DNA from: a bacterium
GTDB lineage: Bacteria > JAAXHH01
Assembly (NCBI GenBank): GCA_965117045.1
Contig: OZ220749.1
Coordinates: forward strand, 2,309,817-2,373,816
Direction: 5' to 3'
DNA: 64,000 nt
In this document: in pieces, positions 11,354 to 36,507 of the stretch
Numbering within the stretch: position 1 is the stretch's first letter
Layout: the number at the start of each line of letters is the position of its first letter
Made by a program: the position numbers and the translations under genes
Notes under the pieces: model-generated
The model's database searches: none
Seen by the model: the letters and a program-made list of their open reading frames with translations, nothing else
Told to the model about the DNA's origin: nothing

Positions 11354-12112
11354 ATGCCTGACGCTCCATCTCAGAATATCGTCCCCAAGACCTATACCTG
11401 TTACCGTGCCTGCGGTCCCATCTCGATCGACGGAAAGTTGAGCGACCCGTCCTGGATCCGGGCGCCCCGCACCGACCTCTTCGTCGATATCGAAGGGGAC
11501 CTCAAGCCCATTCCCCGGTTCGGCACGCGCGCCATGATGCTGTGGGACGACGAGTACTTCTACGTGGCGGCCGACATGGAGGAACCGGACGTCTGGGGCA
11601 CCCTGACCAAGCGGGATTCCATCATCTGCAACGACAACGACTTCGAGGTGTTCATCGATCCCGACGGGGACACCAACCACTACATGGAGTTCGAGATCAA
11701 CCCCCTGAACGCCGTGTGGGACCTGTACCTGCCCAAACCCTACAGCAAGGGCGGGAAAGCCGACCACGACTGGGACTTCGAGGGCGTGCGCCACGCCGTC
11801 CACATCGACGGCACGGTCAACTGTTCCCACGACGTGGACCGCGGCTGGTCCACCGAAATCGCCTTCCCCTGGACCAGCATGGCCGAGTACGCCGGGGTGG
11901 ACTGCCCTCCGAAGCCCGGGGATTCCTGGCGGGTCAACTTCTCGCGGGTCGAGTGGGAATACGAACGCTACAAGGACGGCTATCTACGGAAAGAAGGCGT
12001 GCCCTGCGACAACTGGGTCTGGTCGCCCCAGGGTGAGATCAACATGCACATCCCCGAGATGTGGGGACACGTGGTGTTCTCGGATACGGTGGTGGGCACG
12101 GCGGAGATGTGA
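11354..12112 (+). CDS. Carbohydrate-binding family 9-like (CBM9/DOMON-like) domain protein
   Basis: WDDEYFYVAADMEEPDVW and NDFEVFIDPDGDTNHYMEFEINPLN resemble CBM9-like modules, judged from memory. Confidence 0.4.
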   Translation: MPDAPSQNIVPKTYTCYRACGPISIDGKLSDPSWIRAPRTDLFVDIEGDLKPIPRFGTRAMMLWDDEYFYVAADMEEPDVWGTLTKRDSIICNDNDFEVFIDPDGDTNHYMEFEINPLNAVWDLYLPKPYSKGGKADHDWDFEGVRHAVHIDGTVNCSHDVDRGWSTEIAFPWTSMAEYAGVDCPPKPGDSWRVNFSRVEWEYERYKDGYLRKEGVPCDNWVWSPQGEINMHIPEMWGHVVFSDTVVGTAEM

Positions 12113-13093: not shown

Positions 13094-13328
13094 TTCCTCG
13101 ATCCCACGAATGAACGGTCCCGATGAACTCGTATCTGTAATATAGTTGAAAAAACACGACCAGCGGTATCTTTGGCGTTTCATTATAGGACGAATGCCCG
13201 CCAGGGAAGTTTCACTTATACAAGCTTCCACTTCCAGACGTCAGTGGTTGTTCGATCCCTTCCGGTAACTGACCGCTGAATGGCAGACCGGCGGGTTTCC
13301 GGTTCAAGCCCCGGCAGGAGCAAATGCA

Positions 13329-13781
13329 ATGATCGCTTATCGCCACACCCAGTTCGGCACGGTCAACGTCATCATCACTATCGCCATCCTGCCATTGGTC
13401 TTTATTCCCGCGTGGATGGCAGGAGCGGCGCCCTTCGCCTGGCTGATCCTGCTTTTCATGCTGGGGATCCTGGCGCTGTTCCACAACCTGACCGTCACCA
13501 TCGATGACCAGGACCTCCGCATCAGTTTCGGCATCGGCCTGATCCGGAAGCGGTTCCCCCTGGACCAGATCGAGTTCTGCCAGCCGGTCAGAAACTCCTG
13601 GCTTTACGGGTGGGGTATCCGGCTTACGCCGCGGGGCTGGCTATACAACGTATCGGGACTAGAGGCGGTGGAACTGAAGATGAAGAACGGCAAGACCTGT
13701 CGTATCGGAACGGACGAGCCCGGGGTCCTGGCCGCCGCGGTCCGGGAGGCGGTGGACAGGTCGAGTGAAGCGATGGGGTGA
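13329..13781 (+). CDS. Hypothetical membrane protein (two N-terminal TM helices)
   Basis: Hydrophobic stretches VNVIITIAILPLVFIPAWMA and FAWLILLFMLGILALF. Confidence 0.4.
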   Translation: MIAYRHTQFGTVNVIITIAILPLVFIPAWMAGAAPFAWLILLFMLGILALFHNLTVTIDDQDLRISFGIGLIRKRFPLDQIEFCQPVRNSWLYGWGIRLTPRGWLYNVSGLEAVELKMKNGKTCRIGTDEPGVLAAAVREAVDRSSEAMG

Positions 13782-13853
13782 GATGCTGAACGGGCGACCG
13801 TTGATCTCAAGAAGATCCAGACTACGCCGCCCGTGCGTAACCAGCACGGCCCG

Positions 13854-14093: not shown

Positions 14094-14452
14094 GATCGAC
14101 GGCGCGATACTGCGGAAACTTGCATCTTCTATAGAAAAGAGTCGTTGAGAAACCAGGTTATCTCGTGTTTTATCTTTCGGCAGCCGGATAACCTGGGAAT
14201 CTATTGAACTGGTCCATCGGCTTCATCATTCGGCTCCACAGGTTCTGGCTTGATCCATTCATATCCAGCGAGGGGATTGTGCTAGCGGCGTAAATCGAGC
14301 TTTCTACTTGATTCTTCTTGTCGGTCCTTGCCGCAAAATTTCTTTACGTTTTGCATTTAATCTTTACTTTATGTGTTTTTCTTGGTATCTATTCTAAAGT
14401 AAAGTGAGTGATCTGAATTTCTGCCAATCGATCTACATCATCGGAGCGTATC

Positions 14453-14689
14453 GTGCCCAAAGTCAGTTCCAAGCGACAGATCACGCTTCCGGCCGATCAG
14501 TGCCGATTGGTCGGCATCGAGCCAGGCGACGAGTGCCAAAGCTACGTTGCCGACGGCCGCATTACCATTGTCCGCCAAGAGCCCGGCAGCGCCTGGGGAT
14601 GCCTGTCGCGTCTCGAAGCCGATCCGACGGTTTCAGACGAAGAGTCGCGCCAGGACGCGATTGAAGGGAAGCGGGACCAATTACCGTGA
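14453..14689 (+). CDS. AbrB/MazE/SpoVT-family antitoxin (VapB-like)
   Basis: N-terminal KRQITLPADQCRLVGIEPGDE swapped-hairpin motif. 4-nt GTGA overlap with the downstream PIN gene. Confidence 0.6.
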   Translation: MPKVSSKRQITLPADQCRLVGIEPGDECQSYVADGRITIVRQEPGSAWGCLSRLEADPTVSDEESRQDAIEGKRDQLP

Positions 14690-15087
14690 ACGCAATCGAC
14701 ACCAATGTCCTGCTGCGCTATCTCCTGAGAGACGACGAGGCGCAGGCTGAACGGGTGCGTCGCGTGTTTGAAGGCGGCGAGCGCGTGCTCATTACGGACG
14801 TGGTATTGGCGGAGACGGTGTGGACGTTAGCCGGCCGCCGCTATTGCGCGACCCGTACCGACCTGGTCGATCTGGTCAATAACCTGCTGCAGGATGCCAG
14901 CGTGCGCTTTGAGGATGACGAGGTCGTCTGGAGCGCTCTGCAGGCCTATCGGAGGACTGAAGGGGACTTCGCCGACGCCCTTATTGTGTGCAAAGCCGAA
15001 AAGCTGGCTGCCGAGGGCGACGAGTTGAGCACTGTTTATACCTTCGATGATGTCGCCTTGCAGTTGCCGGGTACTGCGAAGCCGTAG
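14686..15087 (+). CDS. vapC: PIN-domain toxin VapC
   Basis: AIDTNVLLRYLL places the N-terminal Asp in IDTN. It pairs with the upstream antitoxin, and its GTG start overlaps the TGA stop. Confidence 0.7.
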   Translation: MNAIDTNVLLRYLLRDDEAQAERVRRVFEGGERVLITDVVLAETVWTLAGRRYCATRTDLVDLVNNLLQDASVRFEDDEVVWSALQAYRRTEGDFADALIVCKAEKLAAEGDELSTVYTFDDVALQLPGTAKP

Positions 15088-15313
15088 TGTGGGGAGACGT
15101 AACGGTGCCAGGGAAGCATGCCGGTATCACTGTGGGCAGAGGGTTGATTATGTTTATGAGTTGAATGTGGCGTTGGTGGCGTTTGATTCGGACCGATTGT
15201 GTGATTCCCATGGATTTAACGTAATCCGCACCTGTGGCATTTACTTGCACGTAGTGAGCGTATGAACGTTATTTGGTTGGAGACGAACGCCAAACTTTGC
15301 CGAAGGGGCATTC

Positions 15314-15562
15314 ATGAGCAAGGGACTTGTCAGAACAGTGATCAACCTGGAAGACAAGCAGAAGGCATGGCTGGACCAGCAGGCCGCACTGCGACGTGTC
15401 TCCAGGGCCTCGTTGATTCGCCAGGCAGTCAGCGAATATCAGGCTAAGGAAAGGCGGGGCTCGGATGTTTCATTGCAAGAGGCACTCGAACAGACGGCGG
15501 GCATCTGGCAGTCAGGCGACGGCCTCGAGTACCAGGTGCGTATCCGCAAGGAATGGCTTTGA
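15314..15562 (+). CDS. Ribbon-helix-helix (CopG-like) antitoxin
   Basis: RRVSRASLIRQAVSEY is typical RHH. It lies 4 nt upstream of a PIN gene. Confidence 0.6.
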   Translation: MSKGLVRTVINLEDKQKAWLDQQAALRRVSRASLIRQAVSEYQAKERRGSDVSLQEALEQTAGIWQSGDGLEYQVRIRKEWL

Positions 15563-15565
15563 GTC

Positions 15566-15943
15566 ATGGCGAGATACCTGCTGGACTCGGTTATCGTCAT
15601 CGACCACTTCAACGGCGTTGATGCAGCGACGGAGTTCCTGACCGATCACGGTCGAGATTGCGTGATTTCCGTCATTACCCGCGCGGAGACTTTGGCTGGA
15701 TTCCCACCCGAATCTGAACCGTTGGCCCGTGAGCTTCTGGATCAGTTTGCGGCACTACCCGTTACCACCGAAGTCGCCGATGCCGCCGCAAGGTTGAGAC
15801 ACAACCACGGCATGAAACTACCGGATGCAATACAAGCGGCCATAGCAATGCAGGAAGGACTGTCCCTGGTCACTCGAAACACCAGAGACTTCAAGGCTGA
15901 CGGTCCGGTCGATGTGAAGATCCCCTATCGATTACCCCGATAA
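15566..15943 (+). CDS. vapC: PIN-domain toxin VapC
   Basis: LLDSVIVIDHF carries the N-terminal acidic residue. The ORF is about 125 aa and adjacent to an RHH antitoxin. Confidence 0.7.
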   Translation: MARYLLDSVIVIDHFNGVDAATEFLTDHGRDCVISVITRAETLAGFPPESEPLARELLDQFAALPVTTEVADAAARLRHNHGMKLPDAIQAAIAMQEGLSLVTRNTRDFKADGPVDVKIPYRLPR

Positions 15944-16232
15944 ACCCGCAAGGCAGATTGATTTCTCGAGGACGCCTACGCCATCGTCTCCGATGTATGG
16001 GTTCTACGAATGTTCGATGATGTAGAAACCTTTGACTTTTGCTTGGCGAGGCTACCAATCGCGAAATTGCCTTTGAAGTCGCTTACACTTCACCTACATA
16101 ACTATGAAAACCGCAAGTAATGGATTTTGTAGTTTCGTTTGGCCGTGAAACAGTCATGAGCTTGCCTGCAATTGCGGATCACATTCATAGTTCCCTATGG
16201 CGGTATTCTGCTAATTGCATTTGGACTAGGTA

Positions 16233-17309
16233 ATGATGAAAAACAACGTGTCACCATACAGAAAACCCCATGTAATCGTACCAAAAAACGAGGGCAAGGC
16301 TTGTGACGCCGTAATCAAGACAATGGAAAGACGTACCAGAGCGAAACGATCTGATATCCGTTTACCAGAGAGGGATAGAGTTGGAGTTCCAGTGGAACTA
16401 CGTCTAAAGTTGGGCGAACAGGAATACGCGATCGAACACACCATAATCGAACCATTCGAGAACAATATCCAAACCGAGCTAACAGTAGATGAGATTAGAA
16501 GGTACTTGGTTAGATCTCTCGAAGGTCGGTTGCTAAGTCCCATGTACTACGTGCTTCAAGTGCCAAAGGATGTTTGTTTACCGAAAAGGAAAAATAATCG
16601 AGTTAGGGCATTGAAGTTCCTTGCCGAATGGGTCCTAAGCAGTGCGGAGGTTATGTACGAAAGGATCACTGGATATTCATTGCCCATCGACTGCTATAAC
16701 ATCCCGTTCAGCCCTTACTGTTTTCCCGAAGATAGCGTCAAAGACGAACACTCGTGTTTAAACTGCACTGTCGAATTGCTGAGATGGCGGAACGGGACTG
16801 TGATAGGAAGAAAACCTGGCTTTGTTCAAACGGTACTTGACTATCCCAAAGACTTGGAGGGTTTTCGAACAGAACGGATACGTCGAGCTTTCTCAGACAA
16901 GTTTCCAAAGTTGGCGAAGTGTGGTGCTGAAGGAGCGCGAACAGTCTTGATACTGGAAAGCCGGGACGTAGCTCACACGAGATTCGATCTCATCGGGGCT
17001 CAGCTGCCAACCTTGCTGTCTGAGCACGCTTGCGTTCCTGACGAGATATTCTTGGTTGAACCATATGATTCACTCTGGTTTGTGTATCCGATGAAATACG
17101 ACAAGGGTCATTGGCCGGAAGAGGGGATGCCGCAGTGGGACAAAGGGCCGATTTATCATCCGGATAATCTGCCGACTGCTGGGATACCCAAAAGGTACCG
17201 TGATGCATTACAGTTGGACGAAATCTACGAGCCCTACCTGACTCGTGAGTGGATACCTGCCACCTACAAGCCGGAAGAATTGGAAGACCTTACGAATGCT
17301 AGTCTATAG
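16233..17309 (+). CDS. Hypothetical protein (358 aa), first gene of candidate two-gene defence module
   Basis: Low-GC ORF with no family recognised. Co-oriented with the 722-aa gene and 185 nt upstream of it. Confidence 0.5.
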   Translation: MMKNNVSPYRKPHVIVPKNEGKACDAVIKTMERRTRAKRSDIRLPERDRVGVPVELRLKLGEQEYAIEHTIIEPFENNIQTELTVDEIRRYLVRSLEGRLLSPMYYVLQVPKDVCLPKRKNNRVRALKFLAEWVLSSAEVMYERITGYSLPIDCYNIPFSPYCFPEDSVKDEHSCLNCTVELLRWRNGTVIGRKPGFVQTVLDYPKDLEGFRTERIRRAFSDKFPKLAKCGAEGARTVLILESRDVAHTRFDLIGAQLPTLLSEHACVPDEIFLVEPYDSLWFVYPMKYDKGHWPEEGMPQWDKGPIYHPDNLPTAGIPKRYRDALQLDEIYEPYLTREWIPATYKPEELEDLTNASL

Positions 17310-17494
17310 AGTCACTGTATGGTGAAGTTATCCCGATTTTGTAGATGGTATAGAGTTGGAATTCAGGACGACAATGAAGTAAGATCAGTACTGGATAATT
17401 ACAAGTTAATATCCTACAATGTGGAAGATGTATTGGAACAAAATGGTAGGTTCTTTTCGTTTGCCTTCGCAATAGTGTAAGTCAGGGAAATACA

Positions 17495-19663
17495 ATGAAT
17501 AATGAAAACGAACCAGAAGTTCGATCTGAACCTGAAATAGTTGCCGATTTAGAGAGTTTGAGCCAAGAACGGGGGTACATCTATTCCTTCTGTCGAATGG
17601 TTGATGAATACCTGTGGATGAAACCGAATGATCCCGAAATCCCTGATTGGCACAGCCAATTAAACCTACGTGAGCTGACTTTTTTATTGGGATTAATGGT
17701 CAAGTATCAATTGACTGTAACTGATCCTCCAACTAAATGGGAGTCTGACCTACATATCAACAAGACCAATGAGTTGTTTCATGAACTTCATCAAAATCAT
17801 GCATTTCCGAAAACTGAAGAAGTAAACGCCGCCCAAGTGAACTTAGAAGACTGGGAATCGGGGTTGAAAAACACCTATACCGATTGGATCAAAAGCGGTA
17901 AAGGTATCGTCGAGCCGGTTTTCTACGGGGAAGAAGGTGCATATGATTTTCAATTCCTAAAAATGGCTGCATGGAGATACAGATTTGATAATCAGTGGAT
18001 AAAGTCAAAAATAGGCATAGATGTTAATTCTATGACTGATATCGCAGGCAAAATAAAACAATTCACCGAACACCGGATCAATGATGTAACAAGGCCGTCA
18101 GACTTCAGGGAATCATGCCTTCGGTTATTGTCAGTCTTCTTAATCAAGCCGAATAATGTTCCTGGTGCTAACAGGGAGGAAATCGAAGTCTTTCTTGAAA
18201 CCTTTTCTGTTGAACCAGGGGATGGAGTTAATCAGAACCTTGACACGATTGGTAAATACAACACGGCGGACTCACACCCCATTATTAAGATCAGTAATGA
18301 CCTTTATTTCATTCCCATCTACTACAACCTAGCAAAATCCATCTACGAAAACCCTTTCTACTGGATTCTCAAAGACAACGATTACAAACAAACGGGGCTT
18401 AAGAACAGGGGTGATGTCACAGAGGAAATAGCATTCGAACTGTTACGAGGAGTATTTGGTATAGACAACGTTTTTCGAGGGGTAAAAGTACAACGTGGTA
18501 ACAGAGATATAACGGATATCGACGTTCTTGCAGTCTGTGGGAGTAAAGCTGTCATTGTTCAGGTTAAATCTAAGAAACTCACCGAGTTATCGAGGAGGGG
18601 TGACAGGAAGAGCATAGAGAAGGATTTCAAACATGCTGTTCAGGATGCTTACAACCAAGCGTTATTATCGAGAAACTACCTGCTCGAGACAGATGAAACT
18701 TTGACTGTTAATGAAGAAAGGGTTATTCAGGTCAAAGAGAACATCGATGATGCCTACATAATCTGTGCAACTGGTGATCATTATCCTGCAATTAACATTC
18801 AGACAAAGTCATACCTCAAAAAGAAGGCAACCGACCCTTACCCAGTCGTACAAAGTGTTTTTGACCTTGAAACTATATCGTTTTACCTCAGAGACCCTTA
18901 CGATTTCATTTACTACGCTCGTCAACGCACTATACATGCGAGTCACTTCGAGGCTGAATCAGAAATGGCCTTTCTTGGTTTTCATCTAAACCAAAAACTT
19001 TTTCCTACAGATGGATATGATGTCACTGTTATCTCAAGATACTACGCACATCTCATCGACCTTAGTTTTCCAGTTCTAAAAGGTGAGCATCCTTTTTCAG
19101 ATTCTGCATTCAAGGTTTTCCACAAGTGGAAAAACGACGATTTTGATGTACTAGTGAATGAAGTTAAAGTTAGGAGTATTGGTCATCCACAACTGACAGA
19201 TTTGATTTTCTTTTTGTTCGATCTAGCAGGATCTGTAGCTGACAAGATTTTCACAGTCTTCGGCGAAATAAAACGAACAACTCGTCATGACCTTCAGCCT
19301 CACGATGCTACTATTCCAATTAGTCATGTTAAGAAAGGTGTGACACTATTTAGTTACCCTTCCACACATGTACTTAGTGAGCCAATGATCCAAGAACAGT
19401 TTCGAGGCTTTGCAGTTGCTAGGAAATACAAATGCAAGGCTAGTGAATGGTTAGCGCTTGGATCATGTGCACAAAGTTCAAATCTGATTGACTGTCTCTG
19501 GTATAGTAAAGAAGAATGGTGTTATGATGAGAACTTAGAGCGTTTATCAAAAATTCTATTAAAACAAGGGCGGGCAATTCGTACTGACGGACGGAAAATA
19601 GGTAGGAACTCACCTTGCCCATGTGGCAGTGGATTGAAATTCAAAAAGTGCCACGGGAAATAG
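17495..19663 (+). CDS. NERD-like PD-(D/E/Q)xK nuclease-domain protein with C-terminal SEC-C zinc-binding motif (722 aa)
   Basis: Central DITDIDVLAVCGSKAVIVQVKSKK fits the NERD/PD-(D/E)xK pattern (D...D...QxK). The extreme C-terminus CPCGSGLKFKKCHGK is a canonical SEC-C motif. GGGAAA lies upstream of the ATG. Confidence 0.6.
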   Translation: MNNENEPEVRSEPEIVADLESLSQERGYIYSFCRMVDEYLWMKPNDPEIPDWHSQLNLRELTFLLGLMVKYQLTVTDPPTKWESDLHINKTNELFHELHQNHAFPKTEEVNAAQVNLEDWESGLKNTYTDWIKSGKGIVEPVFYGEEGAYDFQFLKMAAWRYRFDNQWIKSKIGIDVNSMTDIAGKIKQFTEHRINDVTRPSDFRESCLRLLSVFLIKPNNVPGANREEIEVFLETFSVEPGDGVNQNLDTIGKYNTADSHPIIKISNDLYFIPIYYNLAKSIYENPFYWILKDNDYKQTGLKNRGDVTEEIAFELLRGVFGIDNVFRGVKVQRGNRDITDIDVLAVCGSKAVIVQVKSKKLTELSRRGDRKSIEKDFKHAVQDAYNQALLSRNYLLETDETLTVNEERVIQVKENIDDAYIICATGDHYPAINIQTKSYLKKKATDPYPVVQSVFDLETISFYLRDPYDFIYYARQRTIHASHFEAESEMAFLGFHLNQKLFPTDGYDVTVISRYYAHLIDLSFPVLKGEHPFSDSAFKVFHKWKNDDFDVLVNEVKVRSIGHPQLTDLIFFLFDLAGSVADKIFTVFGEIKRTTRHDLQPHDATIPISHVKKGVTLFSYPSTHVLSEPMIQEQFRGFAVARKYKCKASEWLALGSCAQSSNLIDCLWYSKEEWCYDENLERLSKILLKQGRAIRTDGRKIGRNSPCPCGSGLKFKKCHGK

Positions 19664-19782
19664 CATCTGATCCCAAAATTCGTTTTGCGGATCCGCCACC
19701 TTCCGATGTAACTCCCAACACTTTCCTCTGTCTGTCACTGGCTTATACCTTCCTTACATTTCAAAAAACCTGCATCCTTTCA

Positions 19783-20520
19783 TCAGCTTGACGACAGAAT
19801 CACACTAGCCCTCGATAGAAGAGATGAAATGAAGTTGTTGAACGTAAGCTCCTCAGCTGGTTCGCTATAATCACCTTTCGTCCCAGTTATCCGATCCGAC
19901 AACAGAAAACATGCACCGTCATACAGTCGTTCACGTAAGAGCTTTGTTAACAGAATTTCATACCGCTCAGCGTAGGAGGCGTTTCTAAACTCGGGAAATA
20001 CTGAAAAGTGCGGTTGATGAACCTTAACGGGACTGGTCGATTTTACGGCATGTTCTAACAGCATCAGATAACCAAGCCAAGGACGTGTTGAAGGCTTGAA
20101 CGCTCCCTCTCGATATGCTGCCCAAAAATCAGTTGCATTGCCGATTGCTTCTTCTGTGCGATTGTTGAAGTTGTTTCCGAAAGATGGCCCCACCTGAGAT
20201 TTCAATTCCACCCCAGCTACAAGTATACCATCCGCGACTATTAGCAAGTCCCATTTTTTTTCAGCTCGATACCACCCGGGCAGTACCATCTTCTTCTGGT
20301 GATATATCATGGTATTCGAGATTCCAATTCTATTGAGAGCTTCCTTTATAACTTCAGCAAACCCATGTAATTGAGCTCCTCCGGTGACAGCGGCTCGTGC
20401 CCCAGTATCACGGACACCAGAGAAGGTACCCTGTGCCTGAGATTGGGAAGTTCGCGTATTCCAGAAATAACTGACAGCCCGTCGAATCTCGTCGTCAAAA
20501 TCTGCCGAATAGCTAGGCAT
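19783..20520 (-). CDS. Type II restriction endonuclease (PD-(D/E)xK), family unassigned
   Basis: DLLIVADGILVAGVELKSQ contains the PD...ExK core. The gene is 7 nt downstream of a DNA methyltransferase gene on the same strand. Confidence 0.5.
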   Translation of the reverse strand: MPSYSADFDDEIRRAVSYFWNTRTSQSQAQGTFSGVRDTGARAAVTGGAQLHGFAEVIKEALNRIGISNTMIYHQKKMVLPGWYRAEKKWDLLIVADGILVAGVELKSQVGPSFGNNFNNRTEEAIGNATDFWAAYREGAFKPSTRPWLGYLMLLEHAVKSTSPVKVHQPHFSVFPEFRNASYAERYEILLTKLLRERLYDGACFLLSDRITGTKGDYSEPAEELTFNNFISSLLSRASVILSSS

Positions 20521-20526
20521 TCAAGT

Positions 20527-21567
20527 TCACTCCAATATTCCATTTCGAATCAATGCTGAACCGAATAGGGATGAGGCCGACTGACAAAGGCGGTTGTACG
20601 CAAAGTCGAAGTAGTCAGAATCAATCTCAAAACCGATGCTATTTCTCCCCCATTTTGCAGCAGCAACTAACGTCGTACCCGTACCCATAAAAGGGTCCAA
20701 AACAGTATCGCCTACAAAACTAAACATCCGAATCAGTCGTTCAGAAACCTCAAGTGGGAACGGGGCTGGGTGGTTCCTTGTCGACGCGCCCGATATTCCC
20801 GTCCAAATCTGTTGAAACCACTTGTTATGATTTTCAACTGAAATCACACTTAGGACCCGGGCGCTAATACTTGGGGACCTGTAACCTCCTGGTTTTCGTT
20901 CCATAAGTACAAACTCAATATCGTTTTTTATGATTGCCCCAGGTTCATATGGTTTTCCGAGAAAACGAGACCCTCGTTCGACTTCGTAGGCGGCATTTGC
21001 TATTTTGTGCCAAATAATGGGAGCTAGATTGTCAAACCCTATATCGCGACAATGTTCTTGGATAGAGGAATGTAGAGGGATCACCGTGTGGCGCCCGTTG
21101 TTTTTACGACGAGAAACACATACATCACCAACAATACATACCAGTCGACCGCCAGGTACTAGCGCACGATAACATTGAGACCAGACCTTATCTAATTCCT
21201 TTAAAAACCTATTGTAACTGAGGAAATTACCAAGTTGGCCGTTGCGGACGGGATATTCCTTGAGATTCCAGTATGGTGGAGATGTTACAACGAGATGAAC
21301 ACTTTCCTTTTCAAGTGCAGACGCTAGACGGGCGTCACCCAGCCAAAGACTATGATTAGTAGGGATATTTTGTACAGCCTGCTCGATTTCTTTCGTATGC
21401 CGCGTGTTACTTGCGATACGTGGTATTTCTTTCTGAGGGTTTTTCAAATTACGTAGGGTACTTGGAACGTAAGGCGCAAGGTCTGCGGACAGAGTTGAAT
21501 TCTGTTCTTTTGAGGGATTTGGGGAGAAAGAAGTACACATTCTTAAGCTGGCCTTCGTCATAGTCAC
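20527..21567 (-). CDS. Beta-class N4-cytosine/N6-adenine DNA methyltransferase
   Basis: Motif IV VVTSPPYWN precedes motif I FMGTGTTLVAAAKWGRNSIGFEID. This circularly permuted order is the beta class, and SPPY suggests N4C. Confidence 0.85.
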   Translation of the reverse strand: MTMTKASLRMCTSFSPNPSKEQNSTLSADLAPYVPSTLRNLKNPQKEIPRIASNTRHTKEIEQAVQNIPTNHSLWLGDARLASALEKESVHLVVTSPPYWNLKEYPVRNGQLGNFLSYNRFLKELDKVWSQCYRALVPGGRLVCIVGDVCVSRRKNNGRHTVIPLHSSIQEHCRDIGFDNLAPIIWHKIANAAYEVERGSRFLGKPYEPGAIIKNDIEFVLMERKPGGYRSPSISARVLSVISVENHNKWFQQIWTGISGASTRNHPAPFPLEVSERLIRMFSFVGDTVLDPFMGTGTTLVAAAKWGRNSIGFEIDSDYFDFAYNRLCQSASSLFGSALIRNGILE

Positions 21568-21641
21568 TGATTTTTGCTATAGGATTTCAAGGCACTCACC
21601 ATACACAATTGAGATACGTTCAGTAGACTTCAGATACAAGT

Positions 21642-24600
21642 CTACTCATTTACAGAAAAGTCCATCGGACCTCTGTAGGTATAAGCAATTGAAGTTTCTC
21701 CACATACACGCGCTGTTAAAACGCCGTCAGGCTGACAACTTATTTTAGATTTTGACATACCGAGTGACTCAAAAGTGGGTGACAGAACCTCACATTGGCC
21801 ATTTCCCGCTATTCTCAGTCTTACGATATCGTCCAATCGAGGCGTAGTAGGTCCATGCCATATTACAGGGATTTCTCCAGAATGAACCGACCACAACAAC
21901 CTATCAGCAGGCACATGATGATTAACAAATTCCAACCAACGACTATGACTGTCGGTAGTCGGCCAGTTTTTGTCTTGGCTTAAAGTCAATACGTCAGGTG
22001 ATCTCAACCATTCTTGCAACTCGCGCGCATTGGTAAAATCAGCATCGGTGTCGGATACTGCCTTGATCGCGGCTAATCGGGACGTAAAGCCAGCCTGCAT
22101 CAATCGAGCTGCACATGGTTTAAGTGTACCTCTTTCCAAACAGGAACCTAAATCTCTTGTCTCTAACTCGTCTATATTATATGTGTCGTGCCCAACAGTT
22201 ATAGTATCCTCGTTGGCAACCGCACGAACTCGCACGGCATCAACAGCCCATGCTAGTTTGTAGACAACACCATTCTCGATGAATCGAAGTATATCATCAG
22301 TTTGGTTAACACTATAACAAGTGAGAGATTCTCCTAGTAGCCAAAGTCTTAATACATCACGCCAGTTGCTAAGATGAGGGTCAGGAACGAACGGTTCGAT
22401 CTCAAATAGCCGTTCTCCTAATTCTAGTATTGCGTCGACGGCTCGATCATTATCCTTATCAACAATAGCTGCATTCGCCACAATCAGTAATGGGTTAAGT
22501 TCTGTAGCAATTGCATCCATGTATTGACCGGATGCCAAACCTACTCCCGCCAGAAAGTAACCTCGTCGCTGTGCTTTACTGCTCTGCATCCAGATTGTAT
22601 TGGCGCGACCAACCAATGCAGCCTTCAAGAGTGTCTGATGACTTTCTTTTTTACGCGCTATCCGTTTTTGCCACAAAGAAGACGACAGTAACTGATCAAG
22701 GCGCATTGACAATTCTTCAACTGGGATATCTTCTTCACCAACTAGACTAAATATCGCGGTATCCAATACAGGTAGGTACTGATTCCACTGTGCGGCGTAT
22801 CGGTTTGTGGTTTTAGTACTCTCTCTTGGAACAACCGGAAAATCCCACGCCTCAGAGTTATTAAGTACGTAGTCGGTTAGTTCCTGTATATCTGGTTTTC
22901 CAAGAGCAACATGTAGTCGCTTCAAGAATATCATAAGAAGCTCAAATAACCCACTTTCGATATCGTGACCACCCTCTTTCGCTAGAAGCCCAGACCACTC
23001 TTGTCTGGATCGTGTGTGGTTTTTGAAAACTGGGTAAAGAATCAACCCTTCTACATCAACAAATGCTCTCCCTGCACGCCCGACTATGTTATGAAAGTCT
23101 GAAGCCTCAATTATCTTCCACCCACCATCCCTGAAATGGTGAATACTGTGCATTACAACTGCGGTCGCACTCAGGTTAAGTCCTTGTGCAAGAGTGGGGG
23201 AAGAAATCGTCACTTTAAGTGCGCCACTCCGTAGAAGGCGTTCCATTTCAATTCTAAAAGGTGTTGGTAACGCTCCATGGTGAATAGCGACACCGAGTTT
23301 TAGGCACCTAAGGATAGGATGATCACTACCAAGCCATTCCTGTCCAATACTCAAGACATCATCAAGTATGCACTCATCCACGTCAAGAGCGGATTCTATG
23401 AATCCCTTAGATTCAAGATCAATAATTGCATCTGCGTAGGGAGTAACGGAATTCCGTTGAGGACAGTAAATCAGAACCGACTGTTTATCTTCTAACAGAC
23501 GCCACGCTGTCGCGATGGCTAATTCTCTTTGGTCTCTTGGAAATGGTTCTGTCCGCCTTCCACGTAGTGGTTTTCTTTCCCTAAAGAACGTGGGCACGAA
23601 TGGTCGTTCTCCACCAACCCTTAGATCGAGGCGGGCCCGCCTGTCGCGCCAAATCACTTCACCGAAACGCTGCCGAGTAGGCCGCCAGTCGGACTTGAGC
23701 GCCACACCTTGATAACCTTTTCTTATCCAACTAGTAAAGTCATCGAGCTTGTTACCATCTGGTAGTATCGCTGACAGACAGATGATCCTTCGTTGAGTCG
23801 CGTCTTCCCTATTCAGTAGACGTTGAATCTGAATCTCATACCGAACCTCACGCTCACCGAGACCAATCATATGACCTTCGTCAAGTACAACAAGGCCCAC
23901 GTCATTGAGTATTGTAGGATCGTTTCGTAACGCAAAATCAAGTTTTTCAGGCGTTGCCACTACTATATCACGCTTAAGGAGAGTATCTTCTTCAAAGCCA
24001 CTCGTTCCCACACTCCCATATAGTCCGGAGACGGAGTATCCTAATGGGCCAAACGTGTTTTGAAGTGTGGACTCCGATTGTGCGGATAACGCGCGAAGCG
24101 GAGTTACAAAAACAACACGCTTACCGTCGCTCAGGCATCGAAGAATACATAGTTCTGCAATACGTGTTTTGCCGGCGCTTGTTGGGAGGGACACAACCAA
24201 GTTGTCTGAAGTATCAACAGCACGACGTGCTCCTTCGATCTGTGAAGGCCAAAGTTCGATTTCCGCTTTCGACCTACGACAGAGCAAAGCGATGAACATA
24301 CTGCGTGCCGCGAGCCATGAGGGGTTCTCACCATCAGGAAGGTCTTGGGGAAGCAGGTTATGAAAACTCGCCTGCCAAAGATCGTCAAATAGTTGGATAG
24401 CCAACCGAAAGCACCACCACTGCGGTACAAAATTCATTTCCGTAGCAACTCGCAATCCTGTCTGTAACTCTTCACGAGCCCTTGTCTCGAGTGCCTTCTC
24501 CCCTGTCTCAATAGCAAGAAGAAAGTAACATAGACCTGAATAAAACTGATCACAGAGCGCTAGATTCAGTGCGACAAGAACCGATTCCTCAAACTGATCG

Positions 24601-25163
24601 CTCGGTGCATCGGCACCAACAGTTGGTTCCTGAGAGGACAGGAACTCAACAAGTCTCTCATCCGAGGCTTCCCCTCTGGCTTTCCATTCGGTGATTTCGT
24701 CTTCAAGCTGATTAAAGTTCCTAAGAATAAGGAAAGATAAACCTCGTTCAATTTGCGACAGATTTGAACTGTGAATTGATTTTATCAGTAAAGAATACGC
24801 CCGGGCTGAAGAACGTCCAAGGTGGTAAGCAGCAGCGGCTAATATCCGTAGAAATCCACGTTGTGGATCGTCGGGGTCACCATTTGCCACGACCGCTTCG
24901 ATTGCCTCTCCAGACTGGATAAACGCACGGGACGCTAGCTGCTCATCACCGCCTTGTGTTCGGAGGTGAATGGCATGTAGCAAGAGTGCATCACCGTAAA
25001 CTATTAAATCATAAGACAGCATCTCCGTAAACGCTGGTGCGCCACGGGGTAGAACACCATCTCGCCAAATCAACGATCGTGCTTGGCCTCGTGCCAGAAG
25101 TTGTGCACGAAAGGCGGGCTCGAGCGCTGAAGCAACTACACTCTCTAGTTGTTCAAGATTCAT
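21642..25163 (-). CDS. Large SF2 DExH (DEGH) helicase, HamB-like, 1173 aa
   Basis: Walker A TSAGKTRIAE, motif II VVLDEGHMIG and motif VI HNIVGRAGRAF. About 300 aa of helical N-terminus and about 450 aa of C-terminal extension. The start overlaps the upstream 257-aa ORF by 11 nt. Confidence 0.85.
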   Translation of the reverse strand: MNLEQLESVVASALEPAFRAQLLARGQARSLIWRDGVLPRGAPAFTEMLSYDLIVYGDALLLHAIHLRTQGGDEQLASRAFIQSGEAIEAVVANGDPDDPQRGFLRILAAAAYHLGRSSARAYSLLIKSIHSSNLSQIERGLSFLILRNFNQLEDEITEWKARGEASDERLVEFLSSQEPTVGADAPSDQFEESVLVALNLALCDQFYSGLCYFLLAIETGEKALETRAREELQTGLRVATEMNFVPQWWCFRLAIQLFDDLWQASFHNLLPQDLPDGENPSWLAARSMFIALLCRRSKAEIELWPSQIEGARRAVDTSDNLVVSLPTSAGKTRIAELCILRCLSDGKRVVFVTPLRALSAQSESTLQNTFGPLGYSVSGLYGSVGTSGFEEDTLLKRDIVVATPEKLDFALRNDPTILNDVGLVVLDEGHMIGLGEREVRYEIQIQRLLNREDATQRRIICLSAILPDGNKLDDFTSWIRKGYQGVALKSDWRPTRQRFGEVIWRDRRARLDLRVGGERPFVPTFFRERKPLRGRRTEPFPRDQRELAIATAWRLLEDKQSVLIYCPQRNSVTPYADAIIDLESKGFIESALDVDECILDDVLSIGQEWLGSDHPILRCLKLGVAIHHGALPTPFRIEMERLLRSGALKVTISSPTLAQGLNLSATAVVMHSIHHFRDGGWKIIEASDFHNIVGRAGRAFVDVEGLILYPVFKNHTRSRQEWSGLLAKEGGHDIESGLFELLMIFLKRLHVALGKPDIQELTDYVLNNSEAWDFPVVPRESTKTTNRYAAQWNQYLPVLDTAIFSLVGEEDIPVEELSMRLDQLLSSSLWQKRIARKKESHQTLLKAALVGRANTIWMQSSKAQRRGYFLAGVGLASGQYMDAIATELNPLLIVANAAIVDKDNDRAVDAILELGERLFEIEPFVPDPHLSNWRDVLRLWLLGESLTCYSVNQTDDILRFIENGVVYKLAWAVDAVRVRAVANEDTITVGHDTYNIDELETRDLGSCLERGTLKPCAARLMQAGFTSRLAAIKAVSDTDADFTNARELQEWLRSPDVLTLSQDKNWPTTDSHSRWLEFVNHHVPADRLLWSVHSGEIPVIWHGPTTPRLDDIVRLRIAGNGQCEVLSPTFESLGMSKSKISCQPDGVLTARVCGETSIAYTYRGPMDFSVNE

Positions 25164-25926
25164 GCACGTTCATTGCTTTCTTAAAGACATTCTCGATAAA
25201 CTTTTGGTGTTTTAGTACCTGCAGTCCTACTGCTCTCTGCATAATTGGTCCGTTATACTTCTTAAGATCTGTGGTTAAAAAGGATTCAGGTTCATTTCCA
25301 GTAAAAGTAAATAACAAGTGCTCAACGTGACTGTGCCTTATGTCCTTAACTAATTGAGCAACTGTTATCGCATCAGAAAGGACGGTGTCACCGAGTTCCA
25401 ATAGACGTTCAGCAACAAAGCTAAGCGCGTGACCGGAGGGTAAACCGTTGTCGCGGTCTAAACATTGTCGCGCTTCTGTAATTGTGCGCTTGTTCAGAAA
25501 TTTACGGCTTTTAGCTTCAGTTTTTAAGAACCGAAGTGGAGTGCCGTCACGTGGGTCTTTGATTCCAATTACATCATCGCCTCGCATAGGCATCTCGCGT
25601 GAATCCTTCCATCGCAGACGCTTTATGGGGACGACATAGTCGGTCTTTTCGCCAATATATTCGGTTGCAAGTATCTCCCCCAGATCTCCGGACCGGATTG
25701 GTTTTGAGTGAGGGAGTTTTTGTTGTAACAGATTCGCTACACCTTCCTTATCAAGCAATTTGAATACCTGCTGAAGACGCTGCTCACTGACGTAATGCTG
25801 CGGAAGAACAGCAGCTGTGCATCGACACCCCGCCTCGACGGAATTTTCGTCTGCTCTGAGTAGTTGTAACGCATGAGTGTTGATGTTCTTGTTCTGTTCA
25901 TGCGTCCAATCAGATAGGAATAGCAC
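25153..25926 (-). CDS. Small putative PD-(D/E)xK protein, HamA (DUF1837)-like
   Basis: GDDVIGIKD...RFLKTEAK fits D-x(19)-E-A-K. It is translationally coupled to the helicase. Assignment to DUF1837 is from memory of Hachiman architecture, not from a search. Confidence 0.4.
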   Translation of the reverse strand: MLFLSDWTHEQNKNINTHALQLLRADENSVEAGCRCTAAVLPQHYVSEQRLQQVFKLLDKEGVANLLQQKLPHSKPIRSGDLGEILATEYIGEKTDYVVPIKRLRWKDSREMPMRGDDVIGIKDPRDGTPLRFLKTEAKSRKFLNKRTITEARQCLDRDNGLPSGHALSFVAERLLELGDTVLSDAITVAQLVKDIRHSHVEHLLFTFTGNEPESFLTTDLKKYNGPIMQRAVGLQVLKHQKFIENVFKKAMNVHES

Positions 25927-26069
25927 CTAGCAAAAAACCTTGTAGCGCATTATTTTTCGTTTAGAGTTGAACAAAACCCTTCGGAAACGGATACCGACTT
26001 GGTATTTTGGGTTTCCAAGTAACAAATAAGGAATCTTCATTTCGGGCGATTGTACTATAAGCAAATCTA

Positions 26070-26855
26070 TCACCCCACCCCCACCTCAATCCCAATCGGA
26101 CAGTGGTCCGACCCCATGACGTCGGGCATGATCCATGCCTTCGAGACGGCGGGCATCAGGTCCTCGGTCACGTAGAAGTAATCGATCCGCCAGCCCACGT
26201 TCCTTTTTCTCGCTCCTGACATGAGGTGCCACCAGGTGTAGTTGTCCGGCCCTTCGTCGAATTGTCGGAAGGTATCCACGTAGCCCTGGTCGACGATCTT
26301 GTCGATCCAATCGCGTTCCATGGGGAGGAACCCGGAGATCTTCTCGTTGTCCTTGGGCCGGGCCAGGTCGACGGCCTTGTGGGCCGTATTCACGTCGCCG
26401 CAGATGACCAGCTTCTTGCCGTCCGCGCGCAGCGATTCCCAGTGGGCCAGGATGGCCTCGTAGAAATCCATCTTGTACTGCAGCCGCTGGGCGTTCTGCT
26501 TTCCATTCGGGAAGTACACGTTGAACAGGGTGAAATCCGGATACTCCAGCACCAGGGTCCGGCCTTCCGAATCGAACCGGTCCTCGCCGAATCCCTTCTC
26601 GACGCTGAGGGGTTCGTGGCGCGTGTAGACCCCTACACCGCTGTATCCTTTTTTCTCCGCTTCCGACCAGAAGCTCGTATATCTGTCGACCTCCGTGATC
26701 TTGGCATCCAGCTGCGACTCCTGGGACTTGGTTTCCTGGATACACAGGATGTCCGGCGCCTCCTCCTGAAGCCACTCGATGAATCCCTTCTTCGCCACCG
26801 CCCTTACGCCGTTCACGTTCCAGCTCAACAGTTTCCATGAAGACATGAAGATCAC
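26070..26855 (-). CDS. xth: Exodeoxyribonuclease III
   Basis: LLSWNVNGVRA, ILCIQETK and the C-terminal SDHCPI region are characteristic of the ExoIII/APE1 family. Confidence 0.85.
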   Translation of the reverse strand: MIFMSSWKLLSWNVNGVRAVAKKGFIEWLQEEAPDILCIQETKSQESQLDAKITEVDRYTSFWSEAEKKGYSGVGVYTRHEPLSVEKGFGEDRFDSEGRTLVLEYPDFTLFNVYFPNGKQNAQRLQYKMDFYEAILAHWESLRADGKKLVICGDVNTAHKAVDLARPKDNEKISGFLPMERDWIDKIVDQGYVDTFRQFDEGPDNYTWWHLMSGARKRNVGWRIDYFYVTEDLMPAVSKAWIMPDVMGSDHCPIGIEVGVG

Positions 26856-26873
26856 CTTTCCTGGTTGATGCCG

Positions 26874-36504: not shown

Positions 36505-36507
36505 GCC

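What the first reader, a model, noticed from the sequence alone, without database searches (positions are those of the whole stretch)
15950..26065. Low-GC defence island in a high-GC chromosome, without recognisable mobility genes
Composition drops from about 64% to about 42% GC over about 10 kb, and every ORF in the segment is defence-related. These comprise two VapBC modules at the edge, an unknown pair of 358 aa and 722 aa (the latter with a NERD-like core and SEC-C motif), a type II restriction-modification pair, and a Hachiman-like nuclease plus helicase pair. No integrase, transposase, tRNA or obvious flanking direct repeat could be found by eye, so the acquisition mechanism is unclear.
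Basis: partly seen in the sequence, partly recalled or inferred. Interest (0 to 1): 0.8.

Follow-up and report, generated by a model that had tools for sequence, protein, structure and literature searches.

The report
Defence-gene island in a chromosomal hotspot
An 11-kb low-GC block of anti-phage genes sits in a slot downstream of the xth gene that related uncultured bacteria leave empty or fill with other defence genes; this is a known kind of "defence hotspot", but it carries two uncharacterised stand-alone genes worth testing.

Summary
Window 15088-26069 (10,982 bp) has 45.6% GC against 61% for the rest of the window, and GC3 of 0.39-0.51 against 0.81-0.89 in core genes. There is no tRNA, integrase, transposase or flanking repeat.

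In 20 related MAG genomes, the interval between xth and a conserved CBM9-domain gene is a variable slot:
- Two genomes have xth and VapC1 only 29-46 bp apart, which is the empty site.
- Others carry type I R-M, GmrSD-like genes, SNF2/DUF1156 genes and other cargo.
- Variation begins exactly at the stop codons of the convergent genes xth and VapC1.

The cargo here is a mosaic:
- VapBC2.
- An intact type I Hachiman. HamA and HamB are close to the solved E. coli HamAB and keep their catalytic motifs.
- An XhoI-family type II R-M pair.
- Two unknown genes.

The "unknown pair" is not a pair. Across 94 loci the 722-aa protein has no conserved neighbour, and sister species share each gene singly. The 722-aa protein is a predicted PD-(D/E)xK (NERD-like) nuclease with a C-terminal SEC-C zinc motif. 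Its family has about 800 clusters and often lies beside known defence and mobility genes.

Verdict: an ordinary member of the "core defence hotspot" kind, probably turned over by flank-guided homologous recombination (inferred). The two genes are candidate single-gene defence systems.

The parts
11354..12112 (+). CBM9-domain gene; conserved left anchor of the wider variable interval
   Evidence: Pfam CBM9_1. 87-97% aa identity and syntenic in relatives. It directly abuts xth in L018.
13329..13781 (+). u150, a 150-aa ORF of unknown function; semi-conserved backbone gene inside the hotspot
   Evidence: No family hit. Present between xth and the CBM9 gene in L002, L003, L005, L007, L014, L015, L020 and L025 at 66-85% aa identity. 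GC3 is 0.83, like the host.
14404..14664 (+). Putative antitoxin VapB1, assigned by position only
   Evidence: No Pfam hit. Co-conserved with VapC1 in L002, L005, L007 and L008.
14686..15087 (+). VapC1 PIN toxin; its stop codon is the left edge of the insert
   Evidence: Pfam PIN 51 bits. Homology with L002, L005 and L007 ends at 15088-15091 (sequences).
15088..26069 (.). The insert proper: 10,982 bp that replace the 29-46 bp VapC1-xth intergenic spacer of L005 and L007
   Evidence: Junction sequences. GC 0.456 against 0.612. No flanking repeats.
15314..15562 (+). VapB2, an RHH antitoxin
   Evidence: Pfam RHH_1 24.5 bits.
15566..15943 (+). VapC2 PIN toxin
   Evidence: Pfam PIN 51 bits. GC3 is 0.60, different from both the host and the rest of the insert. 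No counterpart in relatives.
16233..17309 (+). U358: a stand-alone gene of unknown function, possibly with a restriction-endonuclease-like fold
17495..19663 (+). NERD722: a stand-alone predicted PD-(D/E)xK (NERD-like) nuclease with helical and winged-helix-like domains and a C-terminal SEC-C zinc motif
19783..20520 (-). XhoI-family type II restriction endonuclease
   Evidence: Pfam XhoI 256 bits; PADLOC REase_II 285 bits.
20527..21567 (-). Cognate beta-class N6A/N4C DNA methyltransferase
   Evidence: Pfam N6_N4_Mtase 137 bits; PADLOC MTase_II 195 bits. SPPY at residue 96 precedes FMGTG at 293.
21642..25163 (-). HamB, the Hachiman sensor helicase
   Evidence: PADLOC HamB1 1563 bits over the full length. 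1199 bits to PDB 8vx9_B. DEGH at residue 428.
25153..25926 (-). HamA, the Hachiman effector nuclease (DUF1837); overlaps hamB by 11 nt
   Evidence: PADLOC HamA1 322 bits. E 5e-62 to PDB 8vx9_A. The E-A-K motif at 137-139 aligns with the catalytic E138/K140 of the E. coli protein.
26070..26846 (-). xth (exodeoxyribonuclease III); conserved right anchor, whose stop codon is the right edge of the insert
   Evidence: NCBIfam TIGR00633 316 bits. In nearly all of the 20 relatives, homology ends at the xth stop codon.

Best explanation
The segment is the current cargo of a long-lived variable slot, a 'core defence hotspot', in a clade of uncultured bacteria whose records are labelled Gemmatimonadota or Ca. 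Latescibacterota.

The slot is the intergenic space between two convergent genes. On the right is the core gene xth. On the left is a semi-conserved backbone: VapBC1, then u150, then a CBM9-domain gene.

The cargo is a mosaic of independently exchangeable modules: VapBC2, U358, NERD722, an XhoI-family type II R-M pair and a type I Hachiman (HamAB). It carries no mobility machinery of its own.

The most likely route of gain and replacement is homologous recombination of incoming DNA through the conserved flanking genes, plus occasional illegitimate or transposase-mediated insertion inside the slot. Selection confines the surviving breakpoints to the space between the two stop codons. This mechanism is inferred, not shown.

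Functionally the island stacks complementary defences:
- The R-M pair cleaves unmethylated incoming DNA.
- In HamAB, the HamB helicase senses damaged or free-ended DNA and licenses the HamA nuclease to degrade DNA. This is abortive infection, as established for the E. coli homologue (PMC12278908).
- VapBC toxin-antitoxin modules stabilise the locus or add abortive functions.
- NERD722, and less certainly U358, are predicted stand-alone nucleases. Any defence role for them is inferred from context only.
For: Shown:
- Sharp composition and codon break.
- Empty site in L005 and L007, with xth and VapC1 29-46 bp apart. In L018 xth and the CBM9 gene are 54 bp apart.
- The same VapC1-xth slot holds a GmrSD/HEC-05-like gene in L002 and a type I R-M cluster in L008. 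Other relatives carry more than 9 kb of different low-GC cargo there.
- Pooled hotspot ORFs of relatives hit type I MTases (4 loci), ResIII, HsdS, EcoEI_R_C, GmrSD_N (2), SNF2/DUF1156, AAA_15/AAA_21 and NOV_C. Only one transposase was found and no integrase was listed.
- Variation begins exactly at the xth stop codon in nearly all relatives, and at the VapC1 stop codon.
- Single-gene modules are shared with sister species at divergence like that of core genes: NERD722 87.6% nt with L012, where core genes are 85.7-87.5%; U358 91.3% nt with L021, where core genes are 83.9-90.7%.
- The junctions recur in two further assemblies: L001 (100% identical) and L052 (a second strain).
- The two strains differ by clustered SNP patches, 40 in 29245-31218 and 40 in 35450-36795. 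There are only 2 SNPs in the 4.2 kb between the patches and none across 16070-29244. This is the pattern recombination tracts leave in this neighbourhood.
- Hachiman and the R-M pair are intact by full-length profile matches and catalytic motifs.

Established knowledge: the HamAB mechanism (PMC12278908), and core defence hotspots without MGE hallmarks, for which flank-mediated homologous recombination was proposed (PMC10250203).
Against: - No recombination event that moved this island has been observed directly.
- The 13.2-kb SNP-free tract between the two strains (island, xth and ParC) may simply be clonal frame, because SNPs elsewhere are patchy. About 6 would be expected at the low inter-patch rate.
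- No conspecific genome with an empty site was found, and the left part of the second strain's contig could not be fetched.
- The nearest HamB homologue outside this species is only 70% identical, and nothing matches in plasmid or phage collections. There is therefore no donor and no dating.
- One relative (L010) has a Mutator transposase in the slot, so transposition may contribute.
- The pooled Pfam listing shows only the top 25 of 36 families. An integrase in a single relative could have been missed.
Confidence: 0.72

Rival explanations
1. It is a decayed integrative element, such as a genomic island, satellite or ICE remnant. In this reading it entered as one block by site-specific recombination at the 3' end of xth and later lost its integrase and att sites.
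For: - The right edge is always the same nucleotide position, the xth stop codon, in all relatives. A site-specific integrase targeting the 3' end of a conserved gene could produce this.
- Immediate neighbours of NERD722-family genes elsewhere include tyrosine integrases (4 of 129), rve transposases (3) and resolvases (2).
- L010 has a Mutator transposase in the slot.
Against: - No integrase, transposase, tRNA or att-like repeat is present here.
- No integrase was listed among 65 hotspot ORFs from 14 relatives.
- The left edge is also exactly a stop codon, and the whole native spacer is replaced rather than duplicated.
- The cargo is a mosaic with at least three different compositions and histories.
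- There is no match to plasmids or phages.
Confidence: 0.15
2. The island is mostly ancestral to the clade and was inherited vertically. In this reading, differences among species reflect differential loss rather than gain, and the low GC is slow amelioration.
For: - U358 and NERD722 are as diverged from their counterparts in L021 and L012 as the core genes are, and they sit in the same orientation relative to xth.
- VapBC1 and u150 are shared by several relatives.
Against: - The R-M plus Hachiman block has no counterpart in any of the 20 relatives.
- Each relative has largely unrelated cargo, which loss alone cannot generate.
- GC3 of 0.39-0.51 against 0.83-0.89 means the genes ultimately came from outside the lineage.
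Confidence: 0.1
3. U358 and NERD722 form a new two-gene defence system.
For: - They are adjacent and co-oriented, 185 bp apart.
- Both have possible nuclease folds.
Against: - Among 94 NERD722-family loci, U358 is a neighbour only in this island's own copies, and no neighbour family recurs in more than 4 loci.
- Eight looked-up contexts of either family show the gene alone, and two further U358 contexts agree.
- L012 has only NERD722 and L021 has only U358. The shared DNA ends within tens of bases of each gene.
- The two profiles are unrelated.
Confidence: 0.04
4. It is an assembly or binning artefact: a low-GC contig wrongly joined into a high-GC metagenome-assembled chromosome.
For: The source is evidently a MAG, and the compositional step is abrupt.
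Against: - Both inner junctions are reproduced in an independent Logan assembly (L001, 100% over 15854-26169).
- The xth junction is reproduced in a second strain's contig (L052, 99.7% overall).
- Relatives assembled as single 3.7-3.9 Mb chromosomes also carry low-GC inserts at this position.
Confidence: 0.01

Closest known systems
Core defence hotspots (cDHS1/cDHS2) of Pseudomonas aeruginosa (Johnson et al. 2023, PMC10250203), and defence-island hotspots of E. coli (Hochhauser et al. 2023, PMC10121019)
   Same: - A fixed chromosomal position marked by conserved core genes.
- Highly variable size, 54 bp to more than 9 kb here.
- Lower GC than the genome.
- Cargo dominated by R-M and other defence systems.
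- As in cDHS, not obviously part of any one MGE class. Flank-mediated homologous recombination was proposed there.
   Different: - This is a different phylum and different flanking genes (xth and a CBM9-domain gene).
- It is seen across species of an uncultured clade rather than across strains of one species.
- In E. coli most hotspot cargo sits on recognisable MGEs. Here none is recognisable.
Type I Hachiman (HamAB) of E. coli ECOR31, PDB 8VX9 (Tuck et al. 2024, PMC12278908)
   Same: - HamA of 257 aa against 259 aa, with the E-x-K nuclease motif conserved.
- HamB of 1173 aa against 1174 aa, with DEGH conserved.
- Overlapping two-gene operon.
- Full-length profile matches.
   Different: - Only sequence-level evidence is available, and no activity data.
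- It is hosted in a distant phylum.
- The nearest database homologue of HamB is 70% identical.
XhoI-family type II restriction-modification systems (Pfam PF04555 REase with a beta-class N6A/N4C MTase)
   Same: - A REase with a full-length XhoI-family match.
- An adjacent co-oriented MTase with an SPPY catalytic motif and an FxGxG AdoMet motif.
   Different: - The recognition sequence was not determined.
- CTCGAG is not depleted in the window: 28 observed against 22.5 expected.
Stand-alone multidomain PD-(D/E)xK or NERD defence nucleases: ZwsA (bioRxiv 10.64898/2026.04.06.716636), Shedu SduA, Upx (PMC13099982)
   Different: - The domain architecture differs: an N-terminal helical domain, a C-terminal alpha/beta domain and a SEC-C zinc motif, with none of the VHS, DUF647 or S4 domains reported for ZwsA.
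- The similarity is limited to the nuclease core.
- There is no PADLOC model hit outside the SEC-C motif.
- No experimental data exist.
Rugutis, a lactococcal plasmid single-gene antiphage protein with a SEC-C motif (PMC11381338)
   Same: It is a single-gene system containing a SEC-C zinc motif, otherwise without a structural relative.
   Different: Rugutis is 359 aa with the motif at the N-terminus and no reported nuclease domain. NERD722 is 722 aa with the motif at the extreme C-terminus. Homology between them was not tested, because no Rugutis sequence was available.

Membership tests
Core defence hotspot (a variable slot between conserved core genes) | The same flanking core genes are present in related genomes | tested here: met
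   The MBL-fold gene, ParC and xth are syntenic in 20 loci, and the CBM9 gene is found on the other side wherever the locus reaches that far.
Core defence hotspot (a variable slot between conserved core genes) | Occupancy and content vary between genomes, including empty sites | tested here: met
   The interval ranges from 54 bp (L018) and 0.9-1.1 kb (L016, L020, L025) to more than 9 kb. The VapC1-xth sub-slot is empty in L005 and L007.
Core defence hotspot (a variable slot between conserved core genes) | Cargo enriched in defence systems | tested here: met
   Type I R-M in 4 loci, GmrSD_N in 2, SNF2/DUF1156, AAA_15/AAA_21, HEC-05 and NOV_C. Here: Hachiman, a type II R-M pair and VapBC. No formal enrichment statistic was computed.
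Core defence hotspot (a variable slot between conserved core genes) | Not attributable to one class of mobile element | tested here: met
   No integrase, transposase, tRNA or att-like repeat here. One Mutator transposase among 65 ORFs of relatives. Only the top 25 Pfam families were listed.
Classical integrase-borne genomic island, prophage or ICE | Integrase or recombinase gene, a tRNA or other att target, and flanking direct repeats | tested here: not met
   None found. No DNA match in 72,556 plasmids or 50,697 phages.
Hachiman type I | HamA (DUF1837) with an intact D/E-x-K nuclease motif | tested here: met
   PADLOC HamA1 322 bits over 1-253 of 257. E137-A-K139 aligns with the catalytic E138/K140 of 8vx9_A.
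Hachiman type I | HamB, a Ski2-like helicase with an intact DExH motif, encoded next to hamA | tested here: met
   PADLOC HamB1 1563 bits over the full length. 1199 bits to 8vx9_B. DEGH at residue 428. The genes overlap by 11 nt.
Hachiman type I | Confers phage resistance or DNA-damage-triggered DNA degradation | not testable with these tools
   This needs an experiment.
Type II R-M, XhoI family | A REase of family PF04555 with an adjacent DNA MTase carrying catalytic and AdoMet motifs | tested here: met
   XhoI 256 bits. N6_N4_Mtase 137 bits. SPPY and FMGTG motifs present. A 6-nt gap between the genes.
Type II R-M, XhoI family | CTCGAG specificity | tested here: inconclusive
   There is no avoidance of CTCGAG in the window (28 observed against 22.5 +/- 5.2 expected). 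This neither confirms nor excludes the specificity.
VapBC type II toxin-antitoxin | A PIN-domain toxin preceded by a small DNA-binding antitoxin gene | tested here: met
   VapC1 and VapC2 each score 51 bits to PIN, and VapB2 has RHH_1. VapB1 has no domain hit and is assigned by position and co-conservation only.
NERD / PD-(D/E)xK nuclease superfamily (NERD722) | A restriction-endonuclease-like fold with a conserved D ... (D/E/Q)-x-K motif | tested here: met
Any known defence system in PADLOC-DB v2.0.0 (NERD722, U358) | A significant full-length match to a system component model | tested here: not met
   U358 has no hit. NERD722 has hits only over residues 696-722, the SEC-C motif. Newer DefenseFinder or PADLOC releases could not be queried.
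PD-(D/E)xK nuclease (U358) | A restriction-endonuclease-like fold with a catalytic motif | tested here: inconclusive

The most novel reading that the evidence does not exclude
NERD722 represents an undescribed, widespread family of single-protein anti-phage or anti-plasmid nucleases. The family has about 800 clusters at 50% identity and a conserved architecture of 700-780 aa, and it is also found on Agrobacterium, Sphingomonas, Mycolicibacterium and haloarchaeal plasmids. In this reading a NERD-type PD-(D/E)xK core is regulated by N- and C-terminal sensor domains and a C-terminal SEC-C zinc knuckle. U358 would be a second, unrelated stand-alone defence gene. A clade-wide xth-adjacent hotspot would then be a productive hunting ground for further systems in an uncultured phylum-level lineage.
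Probability: 0.4. Interest if true: 0.55.

Novelty: new member of a known kind. Interest (0 to 1): 0.35.

Why it matters
- It extends the 'core defence hotspot' pattern from well-studied Proteobacteria to an uncultured Gemmatimonadota/Latescibacterota-type clade. The pattern is a fixed slot, exchangeable cargo and no mobile-element hallmarks. Here the slot is conserved across species, and its breakpoints sit exactly at two stop codons.
- That makes the locus a clean natural system for asking how defence cargo turns over without integrases.
- On the practical side, it flags two unannotated gene families as candidate single-gene defence systems. NERD722 is large and diverse and lies next to Gabija, Mokosh, SIR2-HerA, CBASS, AbiE and R-M components in other genomes.
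- NERD722 homologues exist in cultured Agrobacterium, so the hypothesis can be tested directly.

Tried and rejected
- tRNA and Rfam scans of the whole window found nothing.
- The repeat search across 13000-27500 found only 14-27 nt imperfect matches unrelated to the junctions.
- Promoter and terminator scans were at or below shuffle expectation.
- CTCGAG avoidance as a test of XhoI specificity gave no signal.
- Megablast of the insert against plasmids and phages found no match.
- tblastn of NERD722 against GenBank phages found no match. IMG/VR gave 10 distant relatives at 26-31% identity, which I did not analyse further. U358 had no IMG/VR hit.
- I looked for a conspecific empty site through the exact xth protein. 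Only island-bearing contigs came back.
- HamB homologue search for a recent donor: the nearest is 70% identical.
- At first I read the 13.2-kb SNP-free tract between the two strains as a sweep of the island with its flanks. I downgraded this after seeing that SNPs elsewhere are clustered in two patches with about 0.5 SNP/kb between them.
- I considered an integron-like cassette array because the modules are gene-sized. I rejected it: the orientations are mixed and there is no IntI. No attC model was run.
- A profile-profile comparison of U358 against NERD722 showed them to be unrelated.
- The AFDB50 fold library was unavailable.
- Profile searches of both unknown families against PDB sequences gave only SEC-C motif hits or noise.

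Full report
**1. The observation**

A sliding-window profile shows GC of 0.61-0.67 on both sides and 0.39-0.50 from about 15950 to 26050. There are intermediate shoulders at 12000-15950 and over xth. Per-gene third-position GC:

| Genes | GC3 |
|---|---|
| Core genes (9456-10388 ORF, CBM9 gene, u150, xth, ParC, MBL-fold gene) | 0.81-0.89 |
| U358, NERD722, R.XhoI, MTase, HamB, HamA | 0.39-0.51 |
| Four VapBC genes | 0.52-0.74 |

The compositional and codon-usage break is real and large.

**2. Gene content**

- VapB1 (14404-14664) and VapC1 (14686-15087): PIN 51 bits; the antitoxin has no domain hit.
- VapB2 (15314-15562) and VapC2 (15566-15943): RHH plus PIN.
- A 358-aa ORF with no hit in Pfam, NCBIfam, PADLOC or PHROGs (U358, 16233-17309).
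- A 722-aa ORF (NERD722, 17495-19663) with SEC-C at 704-722 (37 bits) and a borderline NERD hit at 306-396 (22.9 bits, cut-off 22.1).
- An XhoI-family REase (19783-20520, 256 bits) next to an N6_N4 MTase (20527-21567).
- HamB (21642-25163, PADLOC 1563 bits, full length) and HamA (25153-25926, 322 bits).

To the right lie xth (TIGR00633, 316 bits) and a topoisomerase IV/gyrase A-family gene. To the left lie an Ig-like ORF, u150 and a CBM9-domain gene.

No tRNA or tmRNA, no Rfam family, no integrase or transposase domain and no meaningful repeat is present.

**3. Is Hachiman intact?**

- HamA matches the solved E. coli HamA (8vx9_A, E 5e-62). It keeps the E-A-K motif at 137-139, which aligns with E138/K140. 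Mutation of those residues abolishes defence (PMC12278908).
- HamB matches 8vx9_B at 1199 bits and keeps DEGH at residue 428.
- The MTase has SPPY followed by FMGTG, the beta-class order.

So this is a bona fide type I Hachiman and a plausible functional R-M pair. Specificity is untested, and CTCGAG is not avoided in the window.

**4. What the locus is**

A scan of species-representative genomes with the ParC-like protein returned about 20 syntenic loci. They come from MAGs titled Gemmatimonadota, Gemmatimonadetes or Ca. Latescibacterota, with 80-93% aa identity in core genes.

Mapping the window's proteins on them shows that the MBL-fold gene, ParC and xth are invariant. What follows xth differs:

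- L018: the CBM9 gene follows after 54 bp. This is a more distant, lower-GC relative.
- L016, L020, L025 and L003: the interval is 0.7-1.1 kb, with at most u79 and u150.
- L005 and L007: VapC1 follows xth after 29-46 bp.
- L002: a 681-aa GmrSD/HEC-05-like gene sits between xth and VapC1.
- L008: a type I R-M cluster occupies the same place.
- L004, L006, L009, L010, L011, L012, L013, L019 and L021: unrelated cargo, which fills all 9 kb retrieved in most of them. It is mostly low-GC (0.45-0.51); L019 is near host level at 0.59.

Pooled hotspot ORFs from the relatives hit:

- type I MTases (4 loci), ResIII, HsdS and EcoEI_R_C;
- GmrSD_N (2);
- SNF2/DUF1156, AAA_15/AAA_21, NOV_C and HD-CE;
- a single Mutator transposase.

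The interval is therefore a conserved, clade-wide defence hotspot.

**5. Boundaries**

I aligned the window with the empty site of L005. Homology runs up to the VapC1 stop codon (15085-15087) and resumes at the xth stop codon (26070-26072). The window has 10,982 bp where L005 has 29 bp.

- blastn homology with L002, L005 and L007 ends at 15088-15091.
- Across nearly all of the 20 relatives, conservation ends at the xth stop codon.
- There is no target-site duplication. The native spacer is replaced, not split.

Breakpoints at two stop codons of convergent genes fit selection-filtered recombination. They do not fit an att-site mechanism.

**6. The island is a mosaic**

The only DNA in the insert shared with any relative is:

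- 17447-19673 with L012 (87% nt): NERD722 with 48 bp upstream and 10 bp downstream.
- 16219-17294 with L021 (91% nt): essentially the U358 coding sequence.

These identities equal those of core genes between the same genomes, 85.7-87.5% for L012 and 83.9-90.7% for L021.

- In L012 the gene upstream of NERD722 is a type I MTase.
- In L021 the gene downstream of U358 is an unrelated 301-aa ORF.

So U358 and NERD722 are either old residents of the clade's hotspot or circulate within the clade.

VapBC2 has its own intermediate composition. The xth-proximal R-M plus Hachiman block is unique to this species among those sampled. The nearest HamB elsewhere is 70% identical, and the named relatives are marine Proteobacteria at 50-57%.

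**7. Not an artefact**

- A Logan assembly (L001) is 100% identical over 15854-26169.
- A 37.8-kb ENA contig from another strain (L052) carries the same island at the same xth junction.

The two strains show no difference across 16070-29244. Their SNPs fall in two dense patches, 40 in 29245-31218 and 40 in 35450-36795, with 2 SNPs in the 4.2 kb between the patches.

This patchiness is the signature of homologous recombination tracts in the neighbourhood, so the proposed mechanism is plausible. The SNP-free tract itself may just be clonal frame. I do not count it as proof that the island moved with its flanks.

**8. The two unknown genes are not a pair**

Evidence from context:

- Eight context look-ups show each gene alone, beside unrelated neighbours. 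These include TIR, SIR2, AAA_21, Eco57I, AbiEii, NACHT and transposases, and in two cases plain housekeeping genes.
- Two further U358 contexts lie next to HsdR plus NOV_C, and next to an MmeI-like enzyme plus IS21 plus DUF4238.
- A metagenome scan gave 80 more NERD722-family loci. Over 94 loci in all, no neighbour family recurs in more than 4. U358 is adjacent only in this island's own copies.

The 129 immediate neighbours of NERD722-family genes were scanned:

| Library | Hits among the 129 neighbours |
|---|---|
| Pfam | Phage_integrase 4, rve 3, N6_N4_Mtase 3, Resolvase 2, Eco57I 2, SIR2_2 2 |
| PADLOC | type IIG R-M 2, type III MTase 2, and one each of HerA, MkoA, GajB, AbiEii, a CBASS cyclase, IetA, PDC-S54 |

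This is a typical defence-island and mobilome neighbourhood.

The NERD722 family is large:

- 561 clusters at 90% identity.
- 808 representatives at E<=1e-30, with the full-length architecture conserved.
- Present on 38 plasmids, including Agrobacterium pAt, where it sits next to PLD-like and large AAA genes.
- Absent from 50,697 GenBank phages.

**9. Predicted function of NERD722**

- N.BspD6I, HindIII and FokI;
- the defence nucleases Upx, Can2 and Shedu SduA;
- McrC and NucC.

Weaker winged-helix-like matches also appear. No full-length relative was found.

Across 46 sequences at 38-85% identity, D341, D343, Q356 and K358 are invariant and E310 is nearly invariant. They sit on the helix and strands expected for a PD-(D/E)xK site.

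My inference is a stand-alone, regulated nuclease. Its N-terminal helical and C-terminal alpha/beta domains would sense or bind a trigger, and its SEC-C zinc knuckle would mediate a nucleic-acid or protein contact. This works like ZwsA, Shedu or Upx, but NERD722 fails membership of any modelled system.

**10. Predicted function of U358**

The model is moderately confident (pLDDT 80).

- Foldseek finds nothing significant.
- The conserved residues (E32, E68-H69-T70, E73, K223, K226, E242) do not form a canonical motif.

A nuclease fold is possible but has low confidence.

**11. Comparison with known systems and verdict**

The finding matches the core defence hotspots described in P. aeruginosa. 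Those have fixed core flanks, variable size, reduced GC and no single MGE class, and flank-mediated homologous recombination was proposed for them (PMC10250203). It contrasts with E. coli, where most cargo sits on recognisable MGEs (PMC10121019).

The known components (Hachiman, XhoI-type R-M, VapBC) are ordinary. I rate the finding as a new member of a known kind, with modest interest.

What is new:

- The host lineage.
- Conservation of the slot across species, with breakpoints at stop codons.
- Two candidate single-gene systems. NERD722 is the stronger one: about 0.4 probability of being a genuine new defence family.

Noticed in passing
window 12134-13231 (-): A 365-aa ORF with weak Ig-like hits (Big_9, PKD) has flat GC at all three codon positions (0.58/0.55/0.58). 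It occurs only here and partly in L014. It appears to be another variable insert, between the CBM9 gene and u150, and is not defence-related. The coding status of the ORF is uncertain.
   Followed up: partly
window 13854-14093 (-), inside a low-GC patch at 13750-14500: A 79-aa ORF with a TTG start and no family hit is conserved at 84-92% aa identity in L002, L003 and L007, in the same position relative to u150. It may be a small conserved hotspot gene or a regulatory element.
   Followed up: no
L003, L008, L014, L015, L016, immediately downstream of xth: These relatives share a similar AT-rich intergenic sequence just after the xth stop codon ('AAAACTACGAGAT...CTACTGTAT'). It is probably the native spacer, and it is absent from the window and from most occupied hotspots.
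   Followed up: no
L012 16428-18002: The hotspot of this sister species carries ORFs that match PHROG families: phrog_11864 (166 aa, 133 bits) and phrog_7043, annotated 'tail protein' (356 aa, 155 bits). They lie next to its NERD722 homologue, so phage-derived or phage-shared genes also land in the slot.
   Followed up: no
window 17319-17480 (+): A 53-aa ORF lies between U358 and NERD722 and was called as a gene on the Logan contig L001. It lies outside the segments shared with L012 and L021. A sigma70-like promoter match (17392-17420) sits inside it.
   Followed up: no
window 29245-31218 and 35450-36795, compared with L052: Two conspecific strains differ by dense SNP patches (about 20-30 per kb) confined to the MBL-fold gene and to a segment about 6 kb further right. 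The DNA between and left of the patches is nearly identical. This suggests frequent short recombination imports in core genes of this population.
   Followed up: partly
L133 (Agrobacterium tumefaciens pAt, NZ_CP042276.1 19735-35879): The plasmid-borne NERD722 homologue WP_099086648.1 lies between an AAA-domain plus PLD-like gene pair and an HxsABC (His-Xaa-Ser radical-SAM) cluster. This is a cultured, tractable context for testing the family.
   Followed up: no
L038 and L137: DUF4238 genes occur near U358 homologues in 2 of 7 looked-up contexts. They are immediately adjacent on both sides in L137 and 3.8 kb away in L038. This is too few to call an association.
   Followed up: no
window 43500-50500: A mild GC dip (0.55-0.57 against about 0.61) over about 7 kb. 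I did not examine it.
   Followed up: no
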